DNA of 54,492 nt from Oscillospiraceae bacterium. GTDB taxonomy: Bacteria > Bacillota > Clostridia > Oscillospirales > WRJC01. Positions 6,094 to 44,280 of this stretch are shown here, piece by piece. The first letter of the stretch is position 1; each line of letters begins with the position of its first letter. The position numbers and the translations under genes are program-made. Under the pieces are notes generated by a model. It was not told the DNA's origin and ran no database searches. It saw nothing but the letters and a program-made list of their open reading frames with translations. The DNA lies in the NCBI GenBank assembly GCA_009777355.1, contig WRMA01000003.1, positions 1 through 54,492 of the forward strand. Reading direction: 5' to 3'.

Positions 6094-6257
6094 AGACCTC
6101 TTTCAAAACCGAAATACGACCACCCCGCCGTCTGCGGACGGCACCCCTCCACGGAGGGGAATAGGGAATAAACGTCTGAAAGTGAGTGAAAATTCCCCTC
6201 CGCGGAGGGGTGGCGCGACGCGTAAGCGGCGTGACGGGGTGGTTTTGAAAGAAGTCC
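6094..6257. mobile_element. MITE-like element (AGAC-type termini) carrying an inverted pair of family-B REP-like palindromes
   Basis: Ends AGACCTCTTTCAAAA / TTTTGAAAGAAGTCC flanked by AAT...AAT; internal ACCACCCCGCCGTCTGCGGACGGCACCCCTCCACGGAGGGG and its inverted variant; between convergent genes. Confidence 0.75.
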
Positions 6258-6266
6258 AATATTATA

Positions 6267-7604
6267 TTATTTTTTTATTTTATTTATAAAATCGGCCAGA
6301 ACGTCGTTCATGTCGGGTTTGCCTATTTCCTGAAGGGCATATTCGACCCGGGTGTTAGGCTTGTTTATTTTTACGATTCTGTTTAAATCTATCGGGGTCG
6401 CTATAACGACGGAATCGCAGTCGGACGCGTTTATCGTTTTCTCGAGGTCGCTGATCTGCTCTTCACCGTAACCCATAGCGGGGAGAAGATTGCCTATATT
6501 CGGGTAAATCCTGTAAGTTTCAGCTAATTTGCCGACGGCGTATTCTCTCGGGTCGACGAGTTCCGACGCTCCGAAGCGTTTTGCCGCGACCGTTCCCGCG
6601 CCGATTTTCATTTCGCCGTGCGTAAGCGTAGGACCGTCTTCGACAACCAGAACTCTTTTGCCGCGTATTATATCGGGATTCTCCACGCTTATAGTAGAAG
6701 CCGCGTCGACGACTGTCGCGCCTTGATTAACTCTCGCGATATTTTCCCTGACTTTTTGTATACCCGCAAAATCCGCGCTGTCAATTTTATTTATAACTAT
6801 AATATCCGCTATGCGCAGAGTGACTTCGCCCGGATAATAAGCGAGCTCGTGACCGGGTCTGTGAGGGTCGACGACAGTAACTGTCAAGTCGGGCTGATAG
6901 AACGGGAAGTCGTTGTTTCCCCCGTCCCATAAAATAACGTCGCAGCCGTCCGGGTCGTTTTCGGCGGCGCGCAGAATCGCTTCATAGTCAACCCCCGCGT
7001 AAATAACGTTTCCTCTCGCGATATGCGGTTCGTATTCTTCCATTTCTTCTATCGTGCATTTATATTTATCCAAATCTTCTATATTCGCGAATCTCTGTAC
7101 TTTCTGTTCTTCGAGGTCGCCGTAAGGCATAGGATGTCTGATTGCGATAACTTTAAGATTATTCGCCATTAAAATTTCGGCTATGCGTCTCGACGTCTGG
7201 CTTTTTCCGCAGCCCGTGCGGGTCGCTCCGACGGCAATCACGGGCTTCGTACTCTTAATCATAGTATTTTTATGCCCCAGCAATTTAAAATCCGCGCCGG
7301 CGGCGTTTACTTTCGCACCAAGCCCCATAACAAAAGCATAAGGCACGTCGCTGTAAGAAAAAACGCACTCGTCTATATTCAAATCTTTTATAAGACGTTC
7401 GAGTTCTTTTTCCTCATATATAGGTATCCCGTCCGGATATAAATCCCCCGCGAGAGAGGCGGGATATTTTCTGCCCGCTATATCGGGGATTTGCGCGGCG
7501 GTAAACGCCTCGACTTTATAAGCGGGATTACCCCTGTAAAAAGTATTGAAGTTGTGGAAATCGCGTCCGGCCGCGCCGATGATAATAATTTTCTGCTGTT
7601 TCAT
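6267..7604 (-). CDS. COG2403 P-loop NTPase (cyclic 2,3-diphosphoglycerate synthetase-like); probable ArcE-type arginine synthetase
   Basis: GAAGRDFHNFN, P-loop TRTGCGKS, RHPMPYG, TIEEMEEYEPH, WDGGNND, EDGPTLTHG, LPAMGY; ARG boxes in its promoter support an arginine link. Confidence 0.8.
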   Translation of the reverse strand: MKQQKIIIIGAAGRDFHNFNTFYRGNPAYKVEAFTAAQIPDIAGRKYPASLAGDLYPDGIPIYEEKELERLIKDLNIDECVFSYSDVPYAFVMGLGAKVNAAGADFKLLGHKNTMIKSTKPVIAVGATRTGCGKSQTSRRIAEILMANNLKVIAIRHPMPYGDLEEQKVQRFANIEDLDKYKCTIEEMEEYEPHIARGNVIYAGVDYEAILRAAENDPDGCDVILWDGGNNDFPFYQPDLTVTVVDPHRPGHELAYYPGEVTLRIADIIVINKIDSADFAGIQKVRENIARVNQGATVVDAASTISVENPDIIRGKRVLVVEDGPTLTHGEMKIGAGTVAAKRFGASELVDPREYAVGKLAETYRIYPNIGNLLPAMGYGEEQISDLEKTINASDCDSVVIATPIDLNRIVKINKPNTRVEYALQEIGKPDMNDVLADFINKIKK

Positions 7605-7676
7605 AAAAAATTTTTCTCCTTTTTTTGTTATTTGTTATTTATTATTTGTTATATTTGATTATTTAAAAATCCGGTT

Positions 7677-7714
7677 CGCGTATTATTATACATTGATTTG
7701 AATATTTATTCAAG
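7677..7714 (-). promoter_or_regulatory. Tandem ARG boxes (ArgR operator) overlapping a sigmaA promoter of the COG2403 gene
   Basis: Minus strand ctTGAATAAATATTCAaa (7714-7697), 2-bp spacer, aaTGTATAATAATACGcg (7694-7677); promoter TTGAAT(7713-7708)-17-TATAAT(7690-7685). Confidence 0.72.
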
Positions 7715-9409: not shown

Positions 9410-10741
9410 TTATCTGTATTTATCTTTCGCGCTGTGCCAGTCGCGTTTGATTATAGTTATTATAGGCAGTAAAAACAACGCGACGAAAGAGGCCGCGAAA
9501 CCGTTGTTATATAAATTAAGCCCCCCGTTTATATCCCCTATATACAACGCGACGTTTACGTGCATGAATCCCGCGATAAATCCCCATACCCAGCCGAACA
9601 TTCCCGCAATCGGCGCGAGTCCGCTCGCGAACAGTATAGACGTAATCTGATTCAACGCCGCCGGGTTCTCCTGATTCGCGTACGCCGACGCGACCGCGCC
9701 CAGCGCTATTGGGAACACGTTTTTTATATGCTTGCCCAAACTGCCGAATCCCGTCATAGTCAGTATCCCCGCAAGTATAGGCCCGCTGATTTGCGCGTTC
9801 AGAACCAGCGCGAGAGTCGTTCCGAAAGAACACAGAACCGCCATATTTATATATATACTGTTCGAGTACATCTCGTAATAATCCGTCGCCAGTCTGCCCG
9901 AATGGCCGTGTATCTTCAGAAACCCCGAAAAACTCTTCCTGACCCCGGACTTAAACTCTTCTGTCCTAAACTTAAATATCCCCGAAAACAAGCCTATTAT
10001 CAGCATCACCCCCGAAAGCGAATATAACAGAACCGCGAAGAAAAAATTATTCCCCCCGCTTACGTAAGACGCGGAAGTAATCTCGATTCCCAGCAGACTC
10101 TTGTAAAGAGTCGCGAGCATAGTCGCGATAAGTCCGCCGGCAAAACCCATGTTATATAAATTATACCCTCCGTGTACTTTTACTGATTCAGCCGATATTA
10201 CCGGGAAAATAAACCCCACGAAAAACCCGAGTATAACCCCCGCCGCTATTTCGAATACCGGGCTGAAAACCCCGAGAAAAGCGATTTCGCTTATAGTCGG
10301 GCTCAGCGTCGCTACGAGCATCGCCGAAAGATAATAACTCGAGAACGGCATTTTGCAGTATTTGGTAAACAGCCATACCCCTGTCGTAAGCGGCAGCATA
10401 TTAAAAACGTTCTTGCCGAAAAAAGCGAACCCGATAGACAGCCACATCGCCATTATATTAGCGCCGCCCGGTTTAACCCCAAGGCGAAGAACCATTGCGA
10501 CGCTGAAAATCCCGACGATTGAAACGTTGAGCAGAGCCGCTCCCACTCCTCCGACCTCTATGTAATCCGTAACTAAAATAGACCTCGACGTAATAATCTT
10601 TATAAACCCGCCGAAAACGTCCTCCGGAGAATCTATTATGAACGCAGCCGCCATAAAAGCCAGGTTTACGCCGAGCATGAAAATAAACGGCAGATATTCA
10701 AAATATTCAACCCCGGAAAATATACCTCGTATTTTCTTCAT
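9410..10741 (-). CDS. Multi-pass membrane protein, DUF1576-like
   Basis: Internally duplicated motifs GFAFFGKN/GFGSLGKH and GYNLYNMGFAGG/GLNLYNNGFAAS; ~12 hydrophobic segments. Confidence 0.75.
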   Translation of the reverse strand: MKKIRGIFSGVEYFEYLPFIFMLGVNLAFMAAAFIIDSPEDVFGGFIKIITSRSILVTDYIEVGGVGAALLNVSIVGIFSVAMVLRLGVKPGGANIMAMWLSIGFAFFGKNVFNMLPLTTGVWLFTKYCKMPFSSYYLSAMLVATLSPTISEIAFLGVFSPVFEIAAGVILGFFVGFIFPVISAESVKVHGGYNLYNMGFAGGLIATMLATLYKSLLGIEITSASYVSGGNNFFFAVLLYSLSGVMLIIGLFSGIFKFRTEEFKSGVRKSFSGFLKIHGHSGRLATDYYEMYSNSIYINMAVLCSFGTTLALVLNAQISGPILAGILTMTGFGSLGKHIKNVFPIALGAVASAYANQENPAALNQITSILFASGLAPIAGMFGWVWGFIAGFMHVNVALYIGDINGGLNLYNNGFAASFVALFLLPIITIIKRDWHSAKDKYR

Positions 10742-10748
10742 ATATTTC

Positions 10749-11216
10749 TTAATTCAATTCTCCCCGCATACTGCATAAACCAATAATTTTTTCCGCGGCT
10801 TCGGCTATATACTGCGCCATTGGTTTCTCTGATATCCCCATTATATTTATATTGCATTTCGACGTTAAAACGGGCACTAAAATTTTAACCGCCCCGCTTT
10901 CGCAGACCGCGCCGGCAATCAGCGGGCTGATTTCCCCTCTCATAGAGTTTGCGAAGCATATCCCGACCGCTCCGGTTATTATATCGGCCGTTTTCGCGTT
11001 ATATATAATCGCGTTCTCACCCGTCGCGGCTATATCGGCCCCGCCTTTGAGCATCGCCGCGGTCGCCGCGGAGTTTGTCCCCGCCGCCGCGATTTCAAAA
11101 TCAACGCCGCTCCTCTCTTGTTTTATATGCTTTATATTCTCGGTTATACTTCTTCCTATGCCTCCGCCCTGTCCGTCTATTACCAGTATTTTAAATATCT
11201 TTTTTGATTTTATCAT
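10749..11216 (-). CDS. DUF3842-like protein
   Basis: VIDGQGGGIG, AGTNSAATAAMLKGGA, ATGENAI, ANSMRGEISP. Confidence 0.8.
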   Translation of the reverse strand: MIKSKKIFKILVIDGQGGGIGRSITENIKHIKQERSGVDFEIAAAGTNSAATAAMLKGGADIAATGENAIIYNAKTADIITGAVGICFANSMRGEISPLIAGAVCESGAVKILVPVLTSKCNINIMGISEKPMAQYIAEAAEKIIGLCSMRGELN

Positions 11217-11220
11217 AAAA

Positions 11221-12540
11221 TTATTCCTCCGTCCTGTCTATATTTATTACCCTCAGCGTTCTCCCCGAATTCGTCCTGCCGTATACAACAAGATTTTTTT
11301 CGTCGGGCGAAAAAGAAAAATCATAAACTATATTATACAGCGACGAATAGATTAGCTTCTTCGTCTGTATATCTATAACGCTTAACTTCGTCATGATGCC
11401 GTTGGGAGACAGAGCCGCGAGATATTCCCCGTTTGAACTCACGTCTATCTGAAAATAATTAACCTGCGACCTCATTACTTCCCTCATTCTTCTCTCGCCT
11501 ATATTAAAATACCCTCCCCTGAATAAATTCCCCTGACCTGCGGAAGCGATATCCGTTCCGGGAAGAAAATAATAAAATATTATATTGTCGTTAAGAAATA
11601 TAAAATTATTCGCCTCCAGAGACGTCAACTGTTCGTTCTCTCCGGGAGAAGCCGCGGTAATTCCCGCGTTTCTCACGAAATTATCGGCGTAAAGCCTGTA
11701 AAATATACGCCGGTCGTCTCCGGACCATACGGGGGTTCTCGCGGTCAGCGACGCTCCGCCCGATTCGGCCGCGGCTATAATCTCTTTCATGTTCGACGCA
11801 TTTATAGTCATATTCGATTCCCGCGGGTTCGCGACAAAAAAACCTCTGTCCGTAGCAAGCGCGAGCGTTTCTTTGTTATTCGACAGCGACGTCTGATAAA
11901 TATTAAAATTACCCGGATAAGAATAATTATCCGTAATTCTCATTCTGCCGGTATCGAACAGAAACGCGGATTTATTATTCGAGAGGAAAAACGTTCCGTC
12001 TCCGTAATCTTTAAACGTATAGTCTTTATTCCGGAAACTTTCGATAAAATCATCCCTGACCGCCCGGTTCGCGACAGATATATTAATCTCCCCCGTCTGT
12101 CCGTCCGTATTAATCAGCGCGATTCTCATAACTTCTTCCGGTTCTTCCAATTCACTTCTTTCAGTTCCTTCAGTTCTTTCAGCTCTTCCCGAACAGAACA
12201 ATATAATATCCATATTATCCGTTATTTTTGCCGCGGCAACAGAAAGCTCCCCAAATTCCGTGTTTCTCAATCCCGAAATATTTATAATATTCTCTTCGAC
12301 CGTAAATCTTCTGTTTCCCGGAGTTCTGTCGTTTACCGTTTCGCCGTCGCCGGAAAGAGCCGTTCTGCTGCCCGCGTATTCGTCCGCGAATTTATAAATC
12401 AGGGGCGCGGTCATAATAACCGTCGCCGCAACGATTAAATACACGACGGCGTTGAGCAGTTTATTTTCCCTCGCTTCTTTTATATTATTTATATTATTAT
12501 TTTTTATACTTGTTTTTTCAAGTTTAAATTTATCATTCAT
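11221..12540 (-). CDS. Membrane-anchored hypothetical protein with probable beta-propeller (TolB/WD40-like) domain
   Basis: N-terminal TM helix; repeated blade-like motifs PVWSGDDRRI, VSSNGEYLA, FSFSPDEKNL. Confidence 0.55.
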   Translation of the reverse strand: MNDKFKLEKTSIKNNNINNIKEARENKLLNAVVYLIVAATVIMTAPLIYKFADEYAGSRTALSGDGETVNDRTPGNRRFTVEENIINISGLRNTEFGELSVAAAKITDNMDIILFCSGRAERTEGTERSELEEPEEVMRIALINTDGQTGEINISVANRAVRDDFIESFRNKDYTFKDYGDGTFFLSNNKSAFLFDTGRMRITDNYSYPGNFNIYQTSLSNNKETLALATDRGFFVANPRESNMTINASNMKEIIAAAESGGASLTARTPVWSGDDRRIFYRLYADNFVRNAGITAASPGENEQLTSLEANNFIFLNDNIIFYYFLPGTDIASAGQGNLFRGGYFNIGERRMREVMRSQVNYFQIDVSSNGEYLAALSPNGIMTKLSVIDIQTKKLIYSSLYNIVYDFSFSPDEKNLVVYGRTNSGRTLRVINIDRTEE

Positions 12541-12545
12541 TCATT

Positions 12546-12680
12546 AGACCCCTTGCGAAATTAAAATCCTGATTGTAGGGGCGCGCATTGCGCGTCCGCA
12601 AAATTAACGCAGTTTTGATGTTTTTCGGACGGACGGCCAATGGCCGCCCCTACATGGTAACGCAGTTTCGCAAGAAGTCT
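12546..12680. mobile_element. MITE-like element, second copy of 852-986
   Basis: Ends AGACCCCTTGCGAAA / TTTCGCAAGAAGTCT flanked by ATT...ATT; same internal GTAG REP doublet and spacer. Confidence 0.8.
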
Positions 12681-12866
12681 ATTCAAAACCAAAACCATCG
12701 GCTTAATATTTCTATTTTTAAATATATATTTCTATTTTATCACATAAAAAACAATATATCAAAATAATTTTTGAATATATAACAAATTATTTACACTAAA
12801 TCTATAAATAATCTGTTAGAATAGTATTAATCAAGTTTTTATTTTTAAAATTCAGGAGGATTTATT

Positions 12867-15704
12867 ATGTCCGCATCTTATTTATCTCTTTTATCTCTGT
12901 CACTCGCAGACAAACTCGCTCTTCTCCAAAGCAACACCCACGGCAACTATTCCCCGTCGCGAACGGTCAGCCAAATCGCCTACGCCCTGAAAATATCCGC
13001 CGTTGAAAACGGAAAATTCAACAAAGAAATCGAAGCCGTTATCGATTTTCTTCTCGGCGACATAAACGGCTCCGGTACTATAACTGCCCTCTCCGCAAGG
13101 CAAGCCGAGCAAAAACTCGAAGAAATCCCGGATTTAAAAAATACTGCGAAAAAAATCAGCGTGATTTGCGTTTCCCACGCTCACATAGACATGAACTGGA
13201 TGTGGGGGTATCAGGAAACCGCCGCGATTACAGTCGATACGTTCAGAACTATTCTTGACCTGATGAAAGAATATCCTGATTTTACTTACTCCCAGTCGCA
13301 AGCGTCAGTCTATAAAATCATCGAAGACCACGACCCCGATATGCTCGAGGAAATAAAAGCCAGAATCAAAGAAGGCAGATGGGAAGTTACTGCCTCGACA
13401 TGGGTCGAGACCGACAAAAATATGCCTAACGGAGAATCTCTCGCGCGGCACATTCTCTATACCAAAAGATATTTGTCAAAACTTCTCGATATAAAACCCG
13501 ATTCTATGCAGCTCGATTTTGAGCCCGACACGTTCGGACATAACTTAACCGTTCCCGAAATTTTAAACAAAGGCGGCGTAAAATATTATTATCACTGCCG
13601 GGCCTTCGACGGGGAATCAGCCTACAAATGGCAATCTCGCAACGGCGCGCAGATTATAGTCTGGAAAGACCCGTGGTGGTACAACTCCGAAATTAATTAC
13701 GACACGTTTTTTGATATGCCCAATTTCTGCAGCAAATACAAAACGGACGTTATATTAAAAGTCTACGGCGTGGGAAATCACGGCGGAGGCCCTACAAGAC
13801 GCGACGTCGAGAGAATATCGGACATGTCGACATGGCCGATTATGCCGAGTATAAAATTCGGCTCTTATCACGAGTTTTTCAAGCGTCTCGAAGCCCAATC
13901 AGACAATCTCCCCGTTATAAATCATGAATTAAACTTTGTTTTCACGGGCTGTTACACTTCTCAATCGAGAATAAAACTGTCAAACAGAATTTCAGAGGAC
14001 AGGCTTTACGAAGCCGAGGCGTTCGGCGCCGCCGCGGCTATATTCTCCGGCAAATCAAAAGCGAAAAGCTTCGAGTCCGCGTGGCAGAAAGTTCTGTTCA
14101 ATCACTTTCATGATATAATCACCGGTTCGGGCGTTATTGACACACGCGAATACGCTATGGGCGAGTTCCAGAAAGTTCTCGCAACCGCCCAGACAAACAC
14201 AACGAACGCCCTGCGCGAAATCGCGTCGAGAATCGACACGTCGTCAATAGAAGTCGAATACGACAAAAATTCCCTCTCCGAAGGCGGCGGAGTCGGCTAC
14301 GCGACCGAACACGCATCAGGCTTTAAATTCCCCCAAACAGAACGCGGCAACGGCAAAGTAAGAATCTTTCATTTATTTAACCCTACTGAATTTGAACGCG
14401 AATCCCCCGTCGAAATAAACGTCTGGGACTGGTATTACGACACTAACAGAATAAGCATAAAAGACTCCGAAGGCAATAAGTCCGAACATAAAATCACGGT
14501 AAATCAGAGCGGTTACTGGGGTCACAGTTATTTCAGGGTCGCGTTTACGGCAAAAATCCCCGCTCTCGGTTACGCGACTTATATCTTAACCGAAGAACCC
14601 AGAGGCGAACTAAATCTCGCCGCGGATTCCGGAGGACGCCTCGACTATTTTTCAGACGACAATATAATCCTCGAAAACTCCAGAATAAAAGCGACTTTTA
14701 CTAATAATATGACCCTGCATGAATTACTGGATAAAAAAACAGGAAAAAAATTATACTCTCCCCAATGCTCCCTGCGTTTTATCCAGGAAAATAATATTCA
14801 CGGCATGACTTCCTGGCGCGTGGGTCCCCGCATGAACGCCGAAGATTTAAACGGCAGCCGCAACGTAAAAGTCCATGACCATAATCTTTGGGGTATAAAA
14901 AAATGGGTAAGATATGAAATCAAATTCAAAAACTCAAAGGTAAACGTCTGCGTCGTTCTCGACGACAACAGCAAAACCCTGCGTTTTGAAATCACAGCCG
15001 ACTGGCACGAAGTCGGAAATCACGAAGCCGGCATACCACAGTTAAGCTTCTTCACTCAGCTTCAAAACGGCAAAACGTCAAGCTACAGATACGACATACC
15101 GTTCGGAACTATTGACAGGGAAGAAAAACAGCACGATATGCCCGGCAACAGTTACGCCGTCTCTCTTCCCCAAACAAACGAAGATTTACCCGTAATGCTC
15201 GCGACAGACTCGAAATACGGATTCAGGACAGCCGACAATTCTATTTCGGTCAATTTAATCCGTTCGTCGTACGACCCCGACCCGTACCCGGAATACGGCG
15301 TACATCACATGGTAATCGGCGTCGCTATACCCGACGATTTACAGAACCAAACCCTCTCAAAAATCCGGGACGAACTCGTCCACCCGACAGCCTATATCTC
15401 CGGAACGAAACACACCGGCGAACTTCCCCTCGCCGCAAGCCTGTTTAAACTATCCGGCGACGTTATTTTATCGGCCGTTAAAACCGCCGAAGATTCGAAA
15501 GACGGCAAAACAATAATAATCCGTCTTTACGACGCGAACGGCAAAGGCTCGACCGCAACCCTCGACTTCGCCAAAGAAATAGCGAAGGCAAGCGTCGTCG
15601 ATTTAAACGAAATATATAAAAAGCCGCTGAAAATCAACGGCAGCTCTGTTTCTCTCGACGTTCCGGCATACGAAGTAATAACAATATCGGCGGAGTTTAA
15701 GTAA
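12867..15704 (+). CDS. Glycoside hydrolase family 38 alpha-mannosidase
   Basis: SHAHIDMNWMW, NGESLARH, EPDTFGH, YGVGNHGGGP, GCYTSQ, NHFHDIITGS; RBS AGGAGG. Confidence 0.93.
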   Translation: MSASYLSLLSLSLADKLALLQSNTHGNYSPSRTVSQIAYALKISAVENGKFNKEIEAVIDFLLGDINGSGTITALSARQAEQKLEEIPDLKNTAKKISVICVSHAHIDMNWMWGYQETAAITVDTFRTILDLMKEYPDFTYSQSQASVYKIIEDHDPDMLEEIKARIKEGRWEVTASTWVETDKNMPNGESLARHILYTKRYLSKLLDIKPDSMQLDFEPDTFGHNLTVPEILNKGGVKYYYHCRAFDGESAYKWQSRNGAQIIVWKDPWWYNSEINYDTFFDMPNFCSKYKTDVILKVYGVGNHGGGPTRRDVERISDMSTWPIMPSIKFGSYHEFFKRLEAQSDNLPVINHELNFVFTGCYTSQSRIKLSNRISEDRLYEAEAFGAAAAIFSGKSKAKSFESAWQKVLFNHFHDIITGSGVIDTREYAMGEFQKVLATAQTNTTNALREIASRIDTSSIEVEYDKNSLSEGGGVGYATEHASGFKFPQTERGNGKVRIFHLFNPTEFERESPVEINVWDWYYDTNRISIKDSEGNKSEHKITVNQSGYWGHSYFRVAFTAKIPALGYATYILTEEPRGELNLAADSGGRLDYFSDDNIILENSRIKATFTNNMTLHELLDKKTGKKLYSPQCSLRFIQENNIHGMTSWRVGPRMNAEDLNGSRNVKVHDHNLWGIKKWVRYEIKFKNSKVNVCVVLDDNSKTLRFEITADWHEVGNHEAGIPQLSFFTQLQNGKTSSYRYDIPFGTIDREEKQHDMPGNSYAVSLPQTNEDLPVMLATDSKYGFRTADNSISVNLIRSSYDPDPYPEYGVHHMVIGVAIPDDLQNQTLSKIRDELVHPTAYISGTKHTGELPLAASLFKLSGDVILSAVKTAEDSKDGKTIIIRLYDANGKGSTATLDFAKEIAKASVVDLNEIYKKPLKINGSSVSLDVPAYEVITISAEFK

Positions 15705-15719
15705 ATAACGGCAATAAAA

Positions 15720-15820
15720 CGCCGCCCTTTAGTAATAGAGCGGGGGATTTTCAAGGGGAATCGCGGCCAATTCCCCTTGAATTTCTTTTTTGGTACTTTT
15801 TGTGAAACGACAAAAAGTAC
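15720..15820. repeat. Hairpin cluster including a family-C AT-rich palindrome; probable terminator between convergent genes
   Basis: TTCAAGGGGAAT...ATTCCCCTTGAA hairpin then TTTCTTTTTTGGTACTTTTTGT...ACAAAAAGTAC. Confidence 0.55.
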
Positions 15821-15825
15821 ACGGT

Positions 15826-16737
15826 CTACCCGTCCGCGTTGATTTTTTCAATAATCTCCTTTAAAATATCGTCGCATTCGTCGTACGGAACCTGACACGT
15901 TCCGACCTGTCTGTGTCCGCCGCCGCCGTATTTTAACATAAGCGAACCGACGTCCGTCTTCGACGTTCTGTTCAATATACTATGCCCGACGGCTATTGCG
16001 ACGTTCTGTTTGTTTCTTCCGTCGACTACCCAGAGAGATATGTTCTGTTCGGGGTATTTCGCATATATCATAAATCTATTTCCCGTATATATCGGCGAAA
16101 CGTCTCTCAAATCCGTAACGACCGCGTTCCGGTAAACTTCCGAGCGTTCGCCTATCATCTCTTTGAACATCTCCGTCTGCTCTTTATATTTCGCGATTCT
16201 TTCCTTAACGTCGGGGTCTTCGAGAATCTCGTCTATTTTTTTTGCCCTGCATTCGTCCAGCAGCTTTTCCATCAGCACGTAGTTGCTTACGCTGAAATCC
16301 CTGAATCTTCCCAATCCCGTCCTGGGGTCCATCAAAAATCCCATAAGCACCCAGCCTTCGGGCTCGAGTATATCGCCGATTTCAAGAGAACCCGAGTCTA
16401 CTTTGTCGACCGCCGCTATCATTTCTTCAAAGCAGGGCATTTTTTCTTTTCCGCCGTAATACTCGTAAACTATGCGCGCCGCGCTTTTCTCCATGCGGCT
16501 TTCGCCTTTAAATTCGACGTCCTTCACCCTCTCTTCTTCGCTTGAATGATGGTCGAACCACATTCCGCAGCCGGGAACGTACGGAACGTTAGTAAGAACG
16601 TCGTTTTCCGTGACATGGATTATCCCATCCTGTAAATCTTTAGGATGCACAAAAGTCCAGGTATCGATTACACCCAAATCTTTCAGGACGGTTCCGCAGG
16701 CAAGACCGTCGAAATCCGAACGAGTTACCAAATTCAT
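15826..16737 (-). CDS. DHH/DHHA1-family phosphoesterase (exopolyphosphatase-like / nanoRNase-like)
   Basis: TRSDFDG, WFDHH, SAAR, C-terminal GGGGH. Confidence 0.8.
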   Translation of the reverse strand: MNLVTRSDFDGLACGTVLKDLGVIDTWTFVHPKDLQDGIIHVTENDVLTNVPYVPGCGMWFDHHSSEEERVKDVEFKGESRMEKSAARIVYEYYGGKEKMPCFEEMIAAVDKVDSGSLEIGDILEPEGWVLMGFLMDPRTGLGRFRDFSVSNYVLMEKLLDECRAKKIDEILEDPDVKERIAKYKEQTEMFKEMIGERSEVYRNAVVTDLRDVSPIYTGNRFMIYAKYPEQNISLWVVDGRNKQNVAIAVGHSILNRTSKTDVGSLMLKYGGGGHRQVGTCQVPYDECDDILKEIIEKINADG

Positions 16738-16786
16738 AAAACATTTCTCCCTATTATTTTATTTATATTTTTTATATTTTTTAGAT

Positions 16787-16898
16787 AGACTTCTTTCAAA
16801 TAAATTAAACGCTACCATGTAGGGGCGGCCATTGGCCGTCCGTCTGAAAAACGTCAAAACTGCGCTAATTTTGCGGACGCGCAATGCGCGCCCCTACA
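16787..16898. mobile_element. Truncated, inverted family-A MITE/REP element fused to the 3' end of the oxidoreductase gene
   Basis: One AGACTTCTTTCAAA terminus, then reverse complement of the 852-986 core; its GTAG supplies the TAG stop at 16894-16896. Confidence 0.75.
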
Positions 16899-17934
16899 AA
16901 AAAACCTCTCTTCCTGTTTCCGCCGATTCGTAAACCGCCCTGACTATCCTCACGCTTTTAATCGCCTCCGCCGGAGTCACAAGAGGCTCCCGGTTCTCTA
17001 TGACTGCCGAAATCATATCCTCGACCTGAACGGAATGTCCGACCGCGAGAGACGGGTCGAGAGCCGCGGCGGCGCCGTTTCCTCCGCCGTAGGTTTCCAG
17101 CATATCGTTTTCCTCGAAAGAATCGCCGCCCGCAATCTTCCAGAGCTTCAGCGAATCGCCGTCTATTTCAACCGAGCCTTTCTCCCCGTACAACTGAATA
17201 TCAGTACATATCCCGGGATAACAGCAGGTCGACGACGTAAACGACGCGACGGCCCCGCTTTCGAACTTAACAATCGAAACAGTCAAATCCTCCGTTTCTA
17301 TTTTATGATTATAGACCCCCGAAACGGAAACGACGCTTTTTACGTCTCCCATAAGCCATTGCATCAAATCGACCGTGTGTACCGCCTGATTCATAAGAGA
17401 ACCCCCGCCGTCCATCTCCCACGTGCCTCTCCAGCCGCCGCTGTCGTAATAATTCTGGTCCCTGAACCATTTTACGGCGAAATTACCCAGTATAATTTTG
17501 CCGAACCTGCCTTCCTCGACGGCTTCTTTTACGGGTTTCATGACCGCGTTGAATCTATTCTGGTGAATAACCCCCGCCTTTAAACCCGTTCTTTTTGCCG
17601 CTTCTTCTATTTCCATAGCTTTTTCAACGGTAATCTCTACCGGCTTTTCTACCAGAATATGCTTGCCTTTTTCAAGAGCCCTCACAGAAAATTCTGAATG
17701 GAGACCGCTCGGAACGCACACGGATACAATATCGATATCCGTATTTTCAAGCATTTCGTCAAAAGACTTATAAGTCAGAACCCCTTCGTAGGCCTGTTTC
17801 GCAGATTCAAGTTTTTCTTCGAGCAAATCGCAGACTGCGATTAACTCCGCATTTTTCGAGTTGTATACGGCGTCGCAGTGGGCGCGTCCGATTCCCAGAC
17901 CGACGACGGCGTATCCGATTTTTTTTTCAGGCAT
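16894..17934 (-). CDS. Gfo/Idh/MocA family oxidoreductase
   Basis: VVGLGIG Rossmann motif, KHILVEKP, WRGTWEMDGGGSLMNQAVHTVD. Confidence 0.92.
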   Translation of the reverse strand: MPEKKIGYAVVGLGIGRAHCDAVYNSKNAELIAVCDLLEEKLESAKQAYEGVLTYKSFDEMLENTDIDIVSVCVPSGLHSEFSVRALEKGKHILVEKPVEITVEKAMEIEEAAKRTGLKAGVIHQNRFNAVMKPVKEAVEEGRFGKIILGNFAVKWFRDQNYYDSGGWRGTWEMDGGGSLMNQAVHTVDLMQWLMGDVKSVVSVSGVYNHKIETEDLTVSIVKFESGAVASFTSSTCCYPGICTDIQLYGEKGSVEIDGDSLKLWKIAGGDSFEENDMLETYGGGNGAAAALDPSLAVGHSVQVEDMISAVIENREPLVTPAEAIKSVRIVRAVYESAETGREVFL

Positions 17935-17996
17935 AAATATTTTCGCACCTCTCTTTAATTATTATATAAATTACAAGACCAAATTAATATTTGTAT

Positions 17997-18074
17997 TGTA
18001 GGGAACGCATTTATGCGTTCCGTGAAAACAAAAAATTATATGTATTTGCGGAACGCATAAATGCGTTCCCTACA
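17997..18074. repeat. GTAG REP doublet (family A2)
   Basis: GTAGGGAACGCATTTATGCGTTCC...GGAACGCATAAATGCGTTCCCTAC; inverted relative at 25107-25196. Confidence 0.8.
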
Positions 18075-18107
18075 ATCATATCCATCTATAATTAATCACT
18101 CTCGGAT

Positions 18108-18425
18108 TTAATTAATTCGCTTTAACGCAATATCATAAACTTCCTCGTCATTGCGCGCCGCAATAACTATAATCTCCATTATATCGCCTTTGCGAACCAA
18201 TTCGTAAACCACGCGAATACCTAACTTTTTTAAAACTATCTTACATAATCCGGTAAGATTCCGTCCTTGTTTATGACCCAGGGGCTTCCCGTAACCGCCT
18301 TCGTTTTGCGGGAGAGGGTTTTTTGAGACTTTCAGAACAGCTTTGTCAATTTGCTCTAACTGATAGTTATTAAATGCCTTCCGGTCCTTTTTCGCTTCGT
18401 CAGAATATTTAATCCGGTAACTCAT
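18108..18425 (-). CDS. RelE/ParE-family type II toxin
   Basis: Start reassigned to ATG 18425 (MSYRIKYSDEAKKD); GYGKPL, LTGLCKI, GIRVVY, IIVIAARNDEEVY; basic; overlaps upstream acidic ORF. Confidence 0.85.
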   Translation of the reverse strand: MSYRIKYSDEAKKDRKAFNNYQLEQIDKAVLKVSKNPLPQNEGGYGKPLGHKQGRNLTGLCKIVLKKLGIRVVYELVRKGDIMEIIVIAARNDEEVYDIALKRIN

Positions 18426-18696
18426 ACTCAAGCTCAACGTCCTCCTCTTCGAGCATACGGTCAATATCTTCGACAGTTAAGCCTCTCTCGGATAAAATCT
18501 CTTCAAAAGACCATTTAATCCCGTTATCATTTTTCTTGCGTTCCGCGGCAAGAGAGATTAAATAATCGTCTTCGTATTCATCGTCAAAATATCTATTATT
18601 TTTTATTATCTTACTTTTGGGATATAATTTCTTGAGATGGATATATGCCGAATTTATATCTGCGTTATCGTCAAAATTTATCGTAATTGAATTCAT
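18409..18696 (-). CDS. Putative cognate antitoxin
   Basis: Small acidic protein (EDDYLISLAAER...SFEEIL...GLTVEDID) overlapping the toxin start; start moved to ATG 18696 by RBS spacing. Confidence 0.7.
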   Translation of the reverse strand: MNSITINFDDNADINSAYIHLKKLYPKSKIIKNNRYFDDEYEDDYLISLAAERKKNDNGIKWSFEEILSERGLTVEDIDRMLEEEDVELEYELPD

Positions 18697-18735
18697 ATCT
18701 ATCATGCTCCCCCGCAATCCGCGTTAAAATCTTCC

Positions 18736-20535
18736 CTAAATCGCCTTACTGTTCACCTCTTCTAAAACATCCCTGATAAAATCGTCGGCTGCGACAGCCC
18801 CGAGTTCGCCTTTTTTGCGCGACCTCACAGAAACCGTATTATTTTCCAGTTCTTTATCCCCGACTATAAGCATATACGGGATTTTTTCGCTTTGAGCCTC
18901 CCTGATTTTATAGCCGATTTTCTCGTTTCTGTCGTCCACTTCTACCCTCAGACCCAAACCCCGCATCTTTTTATTCAAATCATACGCATAGTCATGCTGA
19001 TTACTGCCAATCGGCAGTATTTTTATTTGAACGGGCGCGAGCCACGCGGGGAACGCTCCGGCATATTTCTCGATTAATAACGCGAGCGTTCTCTCGTAAC
19101 AGCCGATTGAACTCCTGTGAATCACATACGGATTTTTCTTCGTTCCGTCCGAATCGACGTATTCCATACCGAATTTCGACGCAAGCTGAAAATCTATCTG
19201 AAGCGTAATCAGGGTATCTTCTTTTCCGTGGACGTTTTTGATTTGCAAATCGAGTTTCGGCCCGTAAAACGCGGCTTCTCCGTCCGCTTCGTAATAATCG
19301 AGCTTTAAATCGTCCAGTATAACCCTCATTCTGTCCTGTACCCTCTCCCATTCGTCCGAATCGCCGATATATTTATCTTTATTATTCGCGTCCCATTTGG
19401 AAAATCTGTAGCTTATATCCTCTTCAAGTCCTAGGGTCGTAAGCATAAATCTCGCCAAATCCAGACAGCCGGCAAACTCTTCCTCAAGCTGGTCGTCGCG
19501 GCAGGCGATATGACCCTCCGACAGGGTAAACTGCCTGACCCTTATAAGTCCGTGCATTTCCCCAGACGCTTCATTCCTGAAAAGATAGGAAGTTTCGTTG
19601 AATCTCATAGGCAAATCCCTGTAACTGCGCATTTTAGCCAGATAATACTGAAACTGGAACGGACAAGTCATAGGACGCAGAGCTAACGCTTCTTTTTTCT
19701 CCTGAACGCCGGTATTCCCGCCGTCCGCGTCTATCGCGTCGCCTACGCTGAACATACCGTCTCTGTAATGCTCCCAGTGCCCCGAGATTTTATACAAATC
19801 GCTTTTAGCCATAAACGGGGTCTTCGTCAATAAATACCCTCTCTTTTCTTCTTCGTCCTCGACGAATCTCTGAAGAATCTGTAAAACTTTCGCGCCTTTC
19901 GGCATCATAATCGGCAGTCCCTGACCTATATAATCGACTGTCGTAAAAAGCTCAAGCTCCCTGCCGATTTTATTATGGTCTCTCCTCTTCGCTTCTTCCA
20001 GCCGTTCGAGATATTCGTCAAGCGCGGCTTTATTCGGGTAAGAAACCCCGTAAATCCTCGTCAGCATTTTATTTTTTTCGCTGCCTTTCCAGTACGCGCC
20101 CGTCGCGTTCAATAATTTAAACGCCTTAACCGAACTCGTATAGTCAAGATGGGGGCCCGCGCACAAATCGACAAAATCTCCCTGTTCATAAAAAGAAACC
20201 TCCTCGCCCTCGTCCAAATCCCCGATTAACTCTATTTTATAAACCTCGCCTTTCTCCCGCATTAATTTTACGGCTTCTTCTTTCGGGAGGACAAATCTCT
20301 TTAATTTTAAATTTTCTTTTATTATTTTCTTCATCTCGATTTCGATTTTTTCCAAATCTTCAGGCGAGAACGGTTTTTCAACGTCGAAATCGTAATAGAA
20401 CCCGTTATCTATCGCCGGACCGATTGCAAGTTTCGCGTCCGGATATAATCTTTTCACGGCCTGAGCGAGAATATGCGCCGAAGTATGCCGGAAGATTTTC
20501 CTGTCTTCGGGCAGTTCAAAATTAATCTTACTCAT
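18736..20535 (-). CDS. thrS: Threonine--tRNA ligase (lacks N-terminal TGS domain)
   Basis: RHTSAH, DLCAGPH, RDHNKIG, LRPMTCP, GLIRVRQF, AAFYGPKLD, VIHRS, EKIGYKIR. Confidence 0.97.
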   Translation of the reverse strand: MSKINFELPEDRKIFRHTSAHILAQAVKRLYPDAKLAIGPAIDNGFYYDFDVEKPFSPEDLEKIEIEMKKIIKENLKLKRFVLPKEEAVKLMREKGEVYKIELIGDLDEGEEVSFYEQGDFVDLCAGPHLDYTSSVKAFKLLNATGAYWKGSEKNKMLTRIYGVSYPNKAALDEYLERLEEAKRRDHNKIGRELELFTTVDYIGQGLPIMMPKGAKVLQILQRFVEDEEEKRGYLLTKTPFMAKSDLYKISGHWEHYRDGMFSVGDAIDADGGNTGVQEKKEALALRPMTCPFQFQYYLAKMRSYRDLPMRFNETSYLFRNEASGEMHGLIRVRQFTLSEGHIACRDDQLEEEFAGCLDLARFMLTTLGLEEDISYRFSKWDANNKDKYIGDSDEWERVQDRMRVILDDLKLDYYEADGEAAFYGPKLDLQIKNVHGKEDTLITLQIDFQLASKFGMEYVDSDGTKKNPYVIHRSSIGCYERTLALLIEKYAGAFPAWLAPVQIKILPIGSNQHDYAYDLNKKMRGLGLRVEVDDRNEKIGYKIREAQSEKIPYMLIVGDKELENNTVSVRSRKKGELGAVAADDFIRDVLEEVNSKAI

Positions 20536-41614: not shown

Positions 41615-41845
41615 GGTTTTTGAACGAGTAAACAAATTATGAACAAATGTGAAAATTATCGCAGAAAGCCCTCTTTTTTAAAGAGGGTGGCAGTCGCGTA
41701 AGCGGCTGACGGGTGTTTTTTAAAATTTGATTTTGCGTACGGGGAGACGAAAACACCCGCCGTCTGCGGACGGCACCCTCTTTAAAAAAGAGGGCAAAGA
41801 ATAAATCCATTATTTGTTCACAAAAATTTAACTCATTCAAAAACC
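41615..41845. mobile_element. ~230-bp MITE (GGTTTTTGAA-type TIRs) containing a family-B REP doublet
   Basis: ~34-bp imperfect TIRs GGTTTTTGAACGAGTAAAC... / ...ACTCATTCAAAAACC; near-identical inverted copy at 44051-44280. Confidence 0.85.
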
Positions 41846-44050: not shown

Positions 44051-44280
44051 GGTTTTTGAACGAGTTAAATTTTTGTGAACAAATAATGGATTTATTCTTT
44101 GCCCTCTTTCGTAAAGAGGGTGCCGTCCGCAGACGGCGGGTGTTTTCGTCTCCCCGTACGCAACATCAAATTTCAAAAACACCCGTCAGCCGCTTACGCG
44201 ACTGCCACCCTCTTTAAAAAAGAGGGCTTTCCGCGATGATTTTCACATTTGTTCATAATTTGTTTACTCGTTCAAAAACC
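44051..44280. mobile_element. ~230-bp MITE, inverted copy of 41615-41845
   Basis: GGTTTTTGAACGAGT...ACTCGTTCAAAAACC; TTA on both flanks one base outside (44047-44049, 44282-44284). Confidence 0.85.

What the first reader, a model, noticed from the sequence alone, without database searches (positions are those of the whole stretch)
6267..7714. ArgR-boxed stand-alone ArcE-like enzyme: candidate one-step arginine biosynthesis
Seen: a COG2403 P-loop protein with its own sigmaA promoter. The -35 lies within a perfect ARG-box core (TGAAT-AAAT-ATTCA), and the -10 lies within a second imperfect box (TGTAT-AATA-ATACG) 2 bp away. Established: tandem 18-bp ARG boxes 2-3 bp apart over core promoter elements are the ArgR/AhrC repression layout of biosynthetic genes. 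From recall, this family (usually annotated GTPase/cDPG synthetase) includes the reversible arginine synthetase ArcE of Thermococcus kodakarensis, described as a catabolic, ATP-conserving enzyme. No ornithine carbamoyltransferase or carbamate kinase is adjacent here. Inference: the gene is repressed by arginine and runs anabolically (citrulline + NH3 + ATP to arginine), substituting for ArgG/ArgH or salvaging citrulline.
Basis: partly seen in the sequence, partly recalled or inferred. Interest (0 to 1): 0.82.

Follow-up and report, generated by a model that had tools for sequence, protein, structure and literature searches.

The report
Arginine-repressed one-step arginine synthetase gene
A gut bacterium that lacks the usual enzyme for finishing arginine synthesis carries a horizontally acquired one-step 'arginine synthetase' gene under the same arginine-sensing switch as its other arginine-making genes, which suggests that it uses this recently discovered enzyme to make arginine, not to break it down.

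Summary
Window 6267-7604 (-) encodes a 445-aa P-loop protein with its own TTGAAT-17-TATAAT promoter. Two ARG boxes, 2 bp apart, cover the -35 and the -10. Only three such tandem pairs exist in the 2.0-Mb genome. The other two sit in the same register on the argC-argJ-argB and argD-argF promoters.

The genome has one ArgR, a complete route to citrulline (argCJB, argDF, carB), no carbamate kinase and no arginine deiminase over cut-off. No argG was found. In a genus mate the same ARG-box promoter drives argG-X-argH-argC; here it abuts argC directly. None of 40 relatives carries the gene, and 37 of them have ArgG.

Of 50 genomes with close homologs, 26 lack both ArgG and ArgH.

Caveats:
- An intact, xenologous argH remains, with no ARG box upstream.
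- The assembly is 91% complete.
- TK2200 (ArcE) could not be fetched for direct comparison.
- Only 4 of 154 ortholog promoters show tandem boxes.
- Anabolic ArcE was already proposed as a possibility by its discoverers in 2024.

Verdict: probably an ArgR-repressed, anabolic arginine synthetase that replaces ArgG. This is a new variant of a known kind and is directly testable.

The parts
6267..7604 (-). CDS, 445 aa (stop included): ArcE-like P-loop enzyme, candidate arginine synthetase (P0001)
   Evidence: ORF list and translation. Relatives at 70-85% identity in many phyla. AF2 model pLDDT 93.6. Nearest solved fold is cDPG synthetase at 13% identity. G133 and K134 of the P-loop are nearly invariant in alignment A2.
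7616..7620 (-). Shine-Dalgarno AGGAG, 11 nt before the ATG at 7604
   Evidence: Read from the sequence.
7685..7690 (-). -10 hexamer TATAAT
   Evidence: TTGAAT-17-TATAAT, 10 of 12.
7708..7713 (-). -35 hexamer TTGAAT
7697..7714 (-). ARG box 1 (18 bp; core TGAATAAATATTCA at 7712..7699), covers the -35
   Evidence: Exact match to TGMATWWWWATKCA, one of 4 in the genome.
7677..7694 (-). ARG box 2 (18 bp; core TGTATAATAATACG at 7692..7679), covers the -10, 2 bp from box 1
   Evidence: Tandem scan. 13 of 14 positions are identical to box 2 of the argD-argF promoter (TGTATAATAATACA). Weight-matrix score 13.2.
6119..6249 (.). REP-like palindromic repeat just downstream of the stop, with a terminator-like hairpin on the - strand (6210..6195, then a T-rich tail)
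   Evidence: Terminator scan. Dozens of copies of this stretch in the two genus mates.

Best explanation
The gene encodes an ArcE-type arginine synthetase (citrulline + NH3 + ATP <-> arginine + ADP + Pi). It was acquired horizontally together with an ArgR-controlled promoter. When arginine is plentiful, the single ArgR of this genome, loaded with arginine, binds the two ARG boxes that cover the -35 and -10 and shuts the promoter, as it would at the argCJB and argDF promoters, which have the same layout. When arginine is scarce the gene is expressed and the enzyme runs in the synthetic direction. It converts the citrulline made by ArgCJBD, ArgF and CPS into arginine in one step, and so stands in for the argininosuccinate synthetase (ArgG) that this genome lacks.

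Shown: the sequence features, their specificity in the genome, the gene inventory, and the missing argG at its syntenic site.
Inferred: ArgR binding, the sign of regulation, the enzyme activity and its direction in vivo.
For: (1) Operator. Only 3 tandem ARG-box pairs exist in 2.01 Mb: this gene, argC-argJ-argB and argD-argF. All have 20-nt phasing, box 1 over TTGMAT (-35) and box 2 over TATAAT (-10). With a matrix trained without this site it ranks 4th genome-wide, and the 3rd-ranked site is intragenic.

(2) Regulator. There is one ArgR with both Pfam domains.

(3) Pathway. argC, argJ, argB, argD and argF all score over NCBIfam cut-offs, and carB is present. No carbamate kinase was found: the only hit lies inside argB. 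No arcA was found. A catabolic ArcE-ArcB-ArcC chain is therefore incomplete, while the supply of citrulline is complete.

(4) ArgG. It was not found with PF00764, with TIGR00032, or by tblastn with the genus mate's ArgG. In genus mate G001 the order is tRNA-Arg, ARG-box promoter, argG, ORF, argH, argC. In G000 the homologous promoter (alignment A1, 77% column identity) abuts argC on one contig.

(5) Distribution. A homologue was found in 0 of 40 relatives, and 37 of those 40 have ArgG over cut-off, including both genus mates.

(6) Family. Of 50 genomes with 68-81% identical homologues, 26 lack both ArgG and ArgH. Seven of these 26 have ArgB, six of those seven also have OTC, and four lack carbamate kinase (tabulated in 88). 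In the quick tree G000 sits in an 8-row clade (SH-aLRT 93) in which 7 of 8 lack CK and 6 of 8 have ArgB.

(7) Tandem boxes recur upstream of some orthologues: L109 scores 29.7 with an alignable promoter, L161 20.4, and L097 (a Virgibacillus) 15.7. A score of 12 or more was reached in 4 of 154 upstream windows against 0 of 800 random windows.

(8) ArcE is reversible and supports arginine synthesis from citrulline in vivo in T. kodakarensis (abstract of PMC11032458).
Against: - An intact argH (618 bits against a cut-off of 279.5, with the GSSxMPxKxN lyase signature readable in the translation) sits on a native contig. None of the 50 homologue-bearing genomes has ArgH without ArgG. An orphan ArgH could mean that argG lies in the roughly 9% of the genome that is not assembled.
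- The assembly has 143 contigs broken at repeats. An ARG-box pair at the very end of contig C129 faces a gap whose gene is unknown.
- The contig join tRNA-Arg/arg promoter rests on a 121-nt repeat overlap that also occurs once inside C65.
- The characterised enzyme is catabolic and its equilibrium favours citrulline + ATP (K = 10.1 at 80 C).
- Most close homologues sit in genomes with OTC and carbamate kinase and without ArgB, which points to catabolic use (16 of 50).
- 150 of 154 orthologue promoters score under 12 for tandem boxes.
- Identity with TK2200 was not measured.
Confidence: 0.5

Rival explanations
1. The enzyme and its ArgR repression are as above, but it is a second route and not the only one. 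argG lies in the unassembled part of the genome and works with the retained ArgH. The ArcE-like enzyme is an ammonia-dependent route that costs less ATP and runs in parallel.
For: - The intact argH is on a native contig.
- Completeness is 90.94%.
- The two nearest Oscillospiraceae genomes (G041, G043) carry ArgG, ArgH and the ArcE-like gene together, as do 23 of 50 genomes overall.
- No genome in the panel has ArgH alone.
- An ARG-box pair at the end of C129 faces an assembly gap.
Against: - argG is absent from its ancestral place between the promoter and argC.
- It is not next to the xenologous argH, which follows ilvE after 44 bp.
- It appears nowhere in 2.01 Mb with three different queries.
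- argH has no ARG box upstream, unlike the other arg units.
Confidence: 0.25
2. The enzyme works catabolically, as in Thermococcus (arginine + ADP + Pi -> citrulline + NH3 + ATP). It would gain ATP or feed ornithine or carbamoyl phosphate pools. The ARG boxes would then act in some way other than arginine-dependent repression, or are fortuitous.
For: - The only characterised member is catabolic and the equilibrium favours this direction.
- 16 of 50 homologue-bearing genomes lack ArgG, ArgH and ArgB but have carbamate kinase. OTC often lies next to CK in these genomes.
- pyrB-pyrI follows the gene in Bacteroidales. This was verified in L039, and 22 of 80 loci have the same kind of neighbour. 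It recalls the carbamoyl-phosphate supply role reported in 2026.
Against: - G000 has no carbamate kinase and no arcA, and it has its own CPS.
- The operator covers the -35 and -10 in the same register as two biosynthetic operons. With a single ArgR, that gives the same sign of control. That boxes over core promoter elements repress is textbook knowledge, recalled here.
- A catabolic gene shut off by its own substrate makes little sense.
Confidence: 0.12
3. The protein is not an arginine/citrulline enzyme at all. It would be a cDPG synthetase, as NCBI names its relatives, or another P-loop kinase or ligase, and the ARG-box match would be chance in an AT-rich spacer.
For: - NCBI names for relatives are 'cyclic 2,3-diphosphoglycerate synthase'.
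- The best solved fold is cDPG synthetase.
- Shuffles give about 1.5 chance tandem pairs per genome.
- No direct comparison with TK2200 was possible.
Against: - Only 13% identity and TM 0.45 to cDPG synthetase, and a sequence E-value of 6.5e-5 over about 100 residues.
- Michimori et al. describe ArcE homologues as distant relatives of cDPG synthase that are widespread in bacteria and annotated as GTPases. They list Virgibacillus and Bacteroidota among the holders. L097 from a Virgibacillus is 69% identical to the protein here.
- 26 of 50 carriers lack ArgG and ArgH, and most have OTC.
- Tandem boxes recur at orthologues.
Confidence: 0.05

Closest known systems
ArcE arginine synthetase of Thermococcus kodakarensis (TK2200; Michimori, Yokooji, Atomi 2024, PMC11032458)
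   Same: Same kind of protein as the paper describes for ArcE homologues: about 440 aa, annotated as a GTPase or cDPG synthase, only distantly related to cDPG synthase, and widespread in bacteria including Bacillota and Bacteroidota. The reaction is reversible and can make arginine from citrulline in vivo. The authors themselves raise a biosynthetic role in organisms that lack ArgG/ArgH.
   Different: In T. kodakarensis the enzyme is catabolic, works with OTC and carbamate kinase, and the organism is an arginine auxotroph. Here there is no carbamate kinase, the route to citrulline is complete, argG is missing, and the gene has an ArgR operator like those of the biosynthetic operons. Sequence identity to TK2200 was not measured.
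ArgG + ArgH (argininosuccinate synthetase and lyase), the canonical citrulline-to-arginine route
   Same: Same net conversion, and here the same regulon. In genus mate G001 argG and argH are driven by the ARG-box promoter that in G000 drives argC directly.
   Different: The canonical route has two steps, uses aspartate as nitrogen donor and converts ATP to AMP + PPi. ArcE needs one step, uses free ammonia and converts ATP to ADP + Pi (stoichiometries as given). The folds are unrelated.
ArgR/AhrC-repressed biosynthetic arg promoters (tandem 18-bp ARG boxes over core promoter elements)
   Same: The palindromic core TGAAT-N4-ATTCA, two boxes 2 bp apart that overlap the -35 and -10, a two-domain ArgR in the genome, and the same layout at argCJB and argDF in this genome and at argG in G001.
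   Different: The regulated gene is not one of the classical arg genes. Box 2 is imperfect (3 mismatches to TGMATWWWWATKCA).
Cyclic 2,3-diphosphoglycerate synthetase of Methanothermus fervidus (PDB 8oru, 8ork, 9sxb)
   Same: Best structural match (Foldseek E 1.2e-17) and the only PDB sequence hit. It is the source of the NCBI product name for this family.
   Different: 13% identity, TM 0.45, rmsd 16 A over the whole chain. The sequence match is limited to residues 222-325 at E 6.5e-5. The hosts are bacteria and non-thermophilic archaea, where no role for cDPG is known to me (recalled).

Membership tests
ArcE arginine synthetase family (type: TK2200) | Significant full-length sequence similarity to the characterised TK2200 protein | not testable with these tools
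Indirect link only: 69% identity to the homologue of a Virgibacillus (L097). The paper lists Virgibacillus natechei among ArcE holders.
ArcE arginine synthetase family (type: TK2200) | P-loop nucleotide-binding site (the enzyme uses ATP/ADP) | tested here: met
   The motif ...TGCGKSQ... is at residues 130-136. G133 and K134 are nearly invariant in a 28-sequence alignment spanning 35-85% identity. There is a weak Pfam cobW/P-loop hit, and the fold matches P-loop kinases and GTPases.
ArcE arginine synthetase family (type: TK2200) | Only distant similarity to cDPG synthetase (the paper's outgroup) | tested here: met
   phmmer E 6.5e-5 over about 100 residues. Foldseek gives 13% identity.
ArcE arginine synthetase family (type: TK2200) | Genomic association with arginine/citrulline metabolism (OTC and carbamate kinase partners; fills the arginine-citrulline step) | tested here: met
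   For the family: OTC in 41 of 50 genomes, carbamate kinase (E up to 1e-40) in 36 of 50, both ArgG and ArgH missing in 26 of 50, no arcA over cut-off in 50 of 50. For G000: OTC yes, carbamate kinase no, arcA no, ArgG no.
ArcE arginine synthetase family (type: TK2200) | Catalyses citrulline + NH3 + ATP <-> arginine + ADP + Pi | not testable with these tools
   Needs an enzyme assay.
ArgR (ARG-box) regulon, repressed class | Palindromic ARG-box core TGAAT-N4-ATTCA | tested here: met
   Exact core at 7712..7699, one of 4 exact TGMATWWWWATKCA sites in 2.01 Mb.
ArgR (ARG-box) regulon, repressed class | Two 18-bp boxes 2-3 bp apart | tested here: met
   Core starts are 20 nt apart. This is one of 3 such pairs in the genome, and the other two lie at argCJB and argDF.
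ArgR (ARG-box) regulon, repressed class | Boxes overlap the core promoter (-35 and -10) | tested here: met
   The -35 at 7713..7708 lies within box 1 and the -10 at 7690..7685 within box 2. The register is the same at the argC and argD promoters.
ArgR (ARG-box) regulon, repressed class | ArgR with DNA-binding and arginine-binding/oligomerisation domains encoded in the genome | tested here: met
   One gene, C94:3358-3810 (-), with PF01316 and PF02863.
ArgR (ARG-box) regulon, repressed class | Operator conserved upstream of orthologues | tested here: inconclusive
   Tandem matrix score of 12 or more in 4 of 154 orthologue upstream windows against 0 of 800 random windows. The promoter can be aligned with those of L109 and L159. 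150 of 154 windows score lower.
ArgR (ARG-box) regulon, repressed class | ArgR binds and represses in response to arginine | not testable with these tools
   Needs EMSA or footprinting and expression data. No RNA run is listed for this stretch.
Cyclic 2,3-diphosphoglycerate synthetase | Orthologue-level similarity to the M. fervidus enzyme | tested here: not met
   13% identity, TM 0.45. Local E 6.5e-5. No NCBIfam model matches.

The most novel reading that the evidence does not exclude
The orphan ArgH is not a relic. In this genome the ArcE-like enzyme, which activates citrulline with ATP and releases ADP + Pi, would also or instead accept aspartate as the nitrogen nucleophile and make argininosuccinate. 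It would then be an ADP-forming analogue of argininosuccinate synthetase that feeds the retained lyase. That would explain why ArgH survives without ArgG only here. My evidence does not exclude this, but it speaks against it: the protein is 70-81% identical to homologues in genomes that have no ArgH at all.
Probability: 0.04. Interest if true: 0.85.

Novelty: new variant of a known kind. Interest (0 to 1): 0.62.

Why it matters
Arginine synthetase was described only in 2024, and its one characterised example is catabolic. [quoted passage not shown] Whether any organism naturally uses it to make arginine is open. The discoverers raised this as a possibility, and later wrote that ArcE occurrence is unrelated to ArgG/ArgH.

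This locus gives evidence of a different kind from presence/absence tables. The gene sits behind the same end-product-repression operator as the biosynthetic arg operons, in a genome where argG has been cut out of the operon. That makes the question directly testable by EMSA, complementation and assay.

The practical consequence concerns genome-based auxotrophy calls. A 2022 survey of gut genomes classed citrulline makers without ArgG/ArgH as arginine auxotrophs. Here 7 of 50 genomes that carry the enzyme have ArgB but neither ArgG nor ArgH.

The route also needs free ammonia in place of aspartate and one ATP equivalent less. This is of interest for arginine production strains and for nitrogen economy in gut communities.

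Tried and rejected
- Direct comparison with TK2200 was not possible. The distant representatives added to the tree sat on very long branches and say nothing. The careful tree did not finish, so only the quick tree is reported.
- Clean insertion of the gene relative to genus mates could not be shown. alr and the TIM-barrel neighbour lie on different contigs in G001 and G002, so the gene sits at a synteny break.
- The simple core search upstream of orthologues found few boxes: up to 1 mismatch in 1 of 78 genome loci with at least 150 nt of upstream sequence and in 5 of 77 metagenome loci. With the 100-nt floor the pooled count is 6 of 154 target windows against 5 of 544 control windows (Fisher p = 0.018; loci are not independent).
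- The idea that arg genes flank the orthologues was rejected. Of 80 genome loci, 25 had a hit: 22 are weak ArgF-like hits (pyrB, verified in L039 only), one is a true OTC (L096), and two are ArgD-like. The same scan on the metagenome loci was lost with the script machine.
- arcA complementarity is inconclusive: 0 of 50 genomes over the cut-off, and 23 of 50 with weaker guanidino-family homologues.
- The gene behind the ARG boxes at the end of C129 was not identified. No contig overlaps that end, and the homologous site in G001 has no boxes.
- argH as a binning artefact was rejected. Contig C34 is syntenic with G001 over 10361-18822 at 72-77% identity.
- Expression: no RNA holder is listed.
- The protein-atlas search added only automatic names (GTPase, cDPG synthase).
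- Literature: 'COG2403' gave 0 papers. 'arginine synthetase'/'ArcE' from 2024 gave three relevant papers among many author-name hits. The ArgR-regulon search gave nothing on point except PMC9026213. Supplements were not opened; the SI distribution figures and tables of PMC11032458 may already list close relatives of this protein.
- What I saw of each paper: PMC11032458, outline with abstract, sections 6 and 15, and passages; PMC13260591, outline with abstract and passages; PMC13763154 and PMC9026213, passages only.
Full report
THE OBSERVATION. The finding's coordinates hold a single ORF on the minus strand, 6267..7604, of 445 aa. Read on the minus strand, the 150-nt spacer before it contains cTTGAATAAATATTCAAa-tc-aaTGTATAATAATACGcg. 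TTGAAT (7713..7708) and TATAAT (7690..7685) are 17 nt apart, and the consensus scan lists this pair with 10 of 12 matches. The first 18-bp box (7714..7697) has a perfect TGAAT-N4-ATTCA core. The second (7694..7677) lies 2 bp away, with the core TGTATAATAATACG. AGGAG (7620..7616) precedes the ATG. The neighbours are alanine racemase and a xylose-isomerase-like TIM-barrel protein; neither is an OTC or a carbamate kinase.

IS IT MORE THAN CHANCE? Not by counts alone.
- In the window, the degenerate core with up to one mismatch occurs twice against 1.07 expected.
- In the whole 2.01-Mb assembly there are 4 exact cores and 3 tandem pairs. Shuffles that keep local composition give 1.37 and 1.5 on average (30 shuffles).
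- The argument rests on where the sites are. The other two tandem pairs lie on the promoters of argC-argJ-argB (contig C82) and argD-argF (contig C74). All five of those genes score over NCBIfam cut-offs.
- All three promoters have the same build: TTGMAT as the -35 inside box 1, a 17-nt spacer, TATAAT inside box 2, and cores 20 nt apart. Box 2 of the gene studied here is identical to box 2 of the argD promoter at 13 of 14 positions.
- A weight matrix built only from the argC and argD boxes and the genus mate's argG boxes ranks this site 4th in the genome (21.2), after the two training promoters and one site that lies inside a 126-aa ORF.

THE PROTEIN.
- Pfam sees only a weak cobW-type P-loop match, and NCBIfam sees nothing.
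- The protein has thousands of relatives. The closest are 80-85% identical and come from Oscillospiraceae, Synergistaceae, Treponema, Planctomycetaceae, Desulfovibrio and even Methanimicrococcus records. NCBI names them 'cyclic 2,3-diphosphoglycerate synthase' and JGI 'predicted GTPase'.
- That name is not supported. The only PDB sequence hit is cDPG synthetase, at E 6.5e-5 over about 100 residues. A confident model (pLDDT 93.6) matches the Methanothermus enzyme at 13% identity and TM 0.45, followed by LpxK and other P-loop kinases and GTPases.
- Michimori et al. (PMC11032458) describe exactly such proteins as homologues of ArcE (TK2200). They are annotated as GTPases, distantly similar to cDPG synthase, and widespread in bacteria including Bacillota and Bacteroidota (sections 6 and 15).

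THE GENOME. The window is contig C3 of a 143-contig assembly, 90.94% complete with 0% contamination. The inventory:
- One ArgR with both domains, in a dxs-nadK-argR...recN neighbourhood.
- argC, argJ, argB, argD and argF, and carB.
- An argininosuccinate lyase at 618 bits.
- No carbamate kinase; the only hit is the amino-acid-kinase fold of ArgB.
- No arcA.
- No ArgG, with PF00764, TIGR00032, or tblastn using the genus mate's ArgG.

IS argG REALLY GONE?
- Among 40 relatives, 37 have ArgG over cut-off, including both genus mates. None has a homologue of the gene studied here.
- In genus mate G001 the order is tRNA-Arg(CCG), a tandem-ARG-box promoter, argG, a 305-aa ORF, argH, and then argC six bases after the argH stop.
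- In G000 a promoter that aligns with the G001 argG promoter, including about 75 nt of upstream spacer (alignment A1, 77% column identity), abuts argC on the same contig. So argG-ORF-argH are not where they are in the genus mate.
- Contig C80 ends with the same tRNA-Arg followed by a REP-like repeat. That repeat overlaps the start of C82 by 121 exact bases. This fits the same neighbourhood, but the 121-mer also occurs once inside C65, so the join is consistent and not proven.
- I put the probability that argG is truly absent at about three in four.

THE ArgH PUZZLE.
- The lyase on C34 follows ilvE after 44 bp. Neither that spacer nor the ilvE promoter carries an ARG box.
- It is 55% identical to the lyases of the genus mates, whereas argC, argJ and argB are 75-81% identical. 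It is 70% identical to the lyase of G041, the Oscillospiraceae genome that also holds the closest genome-collection homologue of the gene studied here.
- The contig is native: positions 10361-18822 are syntenic with G001 at 72-77%.
- So an intact, xenologous argH outside the ArgR regulon persists without argG. Among 50 other genomes with the ArcE-like gene, none has ArgH without ArgG.
- This is the main point against 'replacement of ArgG/ArgH', and it keeps the 'argG unassembled' rival alive.

THE FAMILY AT LARGE. I searched 50 of the 80 genomes behind the genome-collection loci. The tool takes 50 loci per call, and I chose a spread, so 30 were not searched.
- Full-length ArgG in 24, ArgH in 23, and neither in 26.
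- ArgB in 21, OTC in 41, and carbamate kinase in 36.
- No arcA over cut-off in any (cross-table printed).
- Sixteen genomes, mostly Bacteroidales, have no ArgG, ArgH or ArgB but do have carbamate kinase, often next to OTC. This is the catabolic pattern of the published pathway. In these genomes the gene is followed by pyrB-pyrI (L039 verified; 22 of 80 loci have the same kind of neighbour).
- Seven genomes have ArgB but neither ArgG nor ArgH, six of them with OTC. Four of the seven lack carbamate kinase.
- In a quick tree, G000 falls in an 8-row clade (SH-aLRT 93) that spans Bacillota, a Bathyarchaeon, Fibrobacterota and Actinomycetota records. Seven of the 8 lack carbamate kinase and 6 of 8 have ArgB. 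Going by their record titles, several appear to be termite-gut metagenome bins, which is my reading of the isolate names.
- One tightly conserved, horizontally mobile enzyme thus appears to be used in either direction, depending on the host's other genes.

OPERATOR CONSERVATION.
- Most orthologues show no boxes. The tandem matrix score reaches 12 in 4 of 154 upstream windows, against 0 of 800 random 200-nt windows from the same loci.
- The positives are informative. L109 (81% identical protein) has a promoter that aligns base for base with this one (TCTTG.AT... and TGTATAAT.AT.C are invariant), with a near-perfect box 2 and a weak box 1.
- L161 has two exact cores 21 nt apart.
- L097 is the Virgibacillus, whose genome lacks ArgG and ArgH but has ArgB and OTC.
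- So ArgR control is not peculiar to this genome, but it is a minority condition.

MECHANISM. The following is inference from textbook ArgR behaviour, recalled here. Hexameric ArgR loaded with arginine binds tandem boxes, and when these cover the -35 and -10 it excludes RNA polymerase. With one ArgR and three operators of identical build, the gene should be off when arginine is plentiful and on when it is scarce, like argCJB and argDF.

[quoted passage not shown] As a rough calculation of my own, with assumed ATP/ADP near 10 and ammonium about half of phosphate, synthesis proceeds once citrulline exceeds arginine about twofold. Repression by arginine also prevents the enzyme from draining arginine back to citrulline in a cell that has no carbamate kinase to profit from it.

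NOVELTY.
- The enzyme and its reversibility are known. [quoted passage not shown]
- Their 2026 paper states that ArcE occurrence is not related to ArgG/ArgH.
- My searches found no paper on ArgR control of such a gene or on a natural anabolic case. Supplements were closed.
- I therefore file this as a new variant of a known kind: the known enzyme recruited into the end-product-repressed arginine regulon of a genome that has lost argG.

VERDICT.
Regulation, anabolic direction and loss of ArgG are all backed by independent computational lines. ArgH is not replaced, and the idea is not new in print.
- Confidence is 0.5 for 'ArgR-repressed anabolic arginine synthetase as the only citrulline-to-arginine route' and a further 0.25 for the same enzyme as a parallel route.
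- Interest is 0.62.

Noticed in passing
window 6119-6249, 41670-41795, 44101-44225; G000 contig ends such as C80:1-121 and C82:1-121: A REP-like, GC-rich palindromic repeat of about 125 nt. The C82 copy gives 108 blastn hits in the assembly, 68 of them 100 nt or longer and 30 touching a contig end. The genus mates hold dozens of copies. It seems to be the main cause of the fragmented assembly. One copy supplies a terminator-like hairpin after the gene studied here.
   Followed up: partly
G000 contig C129:3700-3743 (locus L020): An exact ARG-box core (TGCATAAATATGCA) and a second core 18 nt further on lie at the very end of a contig, after a 510-aa lipoprotein gene, and face an assembly gap. 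No contig overlaps this end, and the homologous site in G001 has no boxes. An unknown ArgR-controlled gene may lie in the gap.
   Followed up: partly
G000 contig C34:7842-10368 (locus L004): An ilvE-argH pair with a 44-bp spacer and no ARG box. This ArgH is 55% identical to those of the genus mates but 70% identical to that of an Oscillospiraceae genome (G041), so it looks like a xenologue inserted into an otherwise native contig.
   Followed up: partly
L039:5001-7840, and 21 further genome-contig loci listed: In Bacteroidales-type loci the ArcE-like gene is followed on the same strand by pyrB and pyrI (aspartate carbamoyltransferase; verified by NCBIfam in L039 only). This adjacency recalls the 2026 report that the arginine synthetase pathway supplies carbamoyl phosphate for pyrimidines in Thermococcus.
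   Followed up: partly
proteins P0002-P0120; loci L021-L100: The family is unusually conserved across phyla and domains: 70-85% identity between Bacillota, Bacteroidota, Spirochaetota, Planctomycetota, a Bathyarchaeon and a Methanimicrococcus record. This points to recent horizontal spread among anaerobes. The NCBI product name 'cyclic 2,3-diphosphoglycerate synthase' for these proteins is probably wrong.
   Followed up: partly
L161:70-115: A metagenome contig whose ArcE-like gene (73% identical) is preceded by two exact ARG-box cores 21 nt apart (TGAATTTTTATGCA and TGAATATTTATTCA). This looks like an independent case of ArgR control.
   Followed up: partly
G000 contig C10:32096-32130: The third-best tandem ARG-box score in the genome (22.5) lies inside a 126-aa ORF on the opposite strand. 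It is probably chance, but it was not examined further.
   Followed up: no
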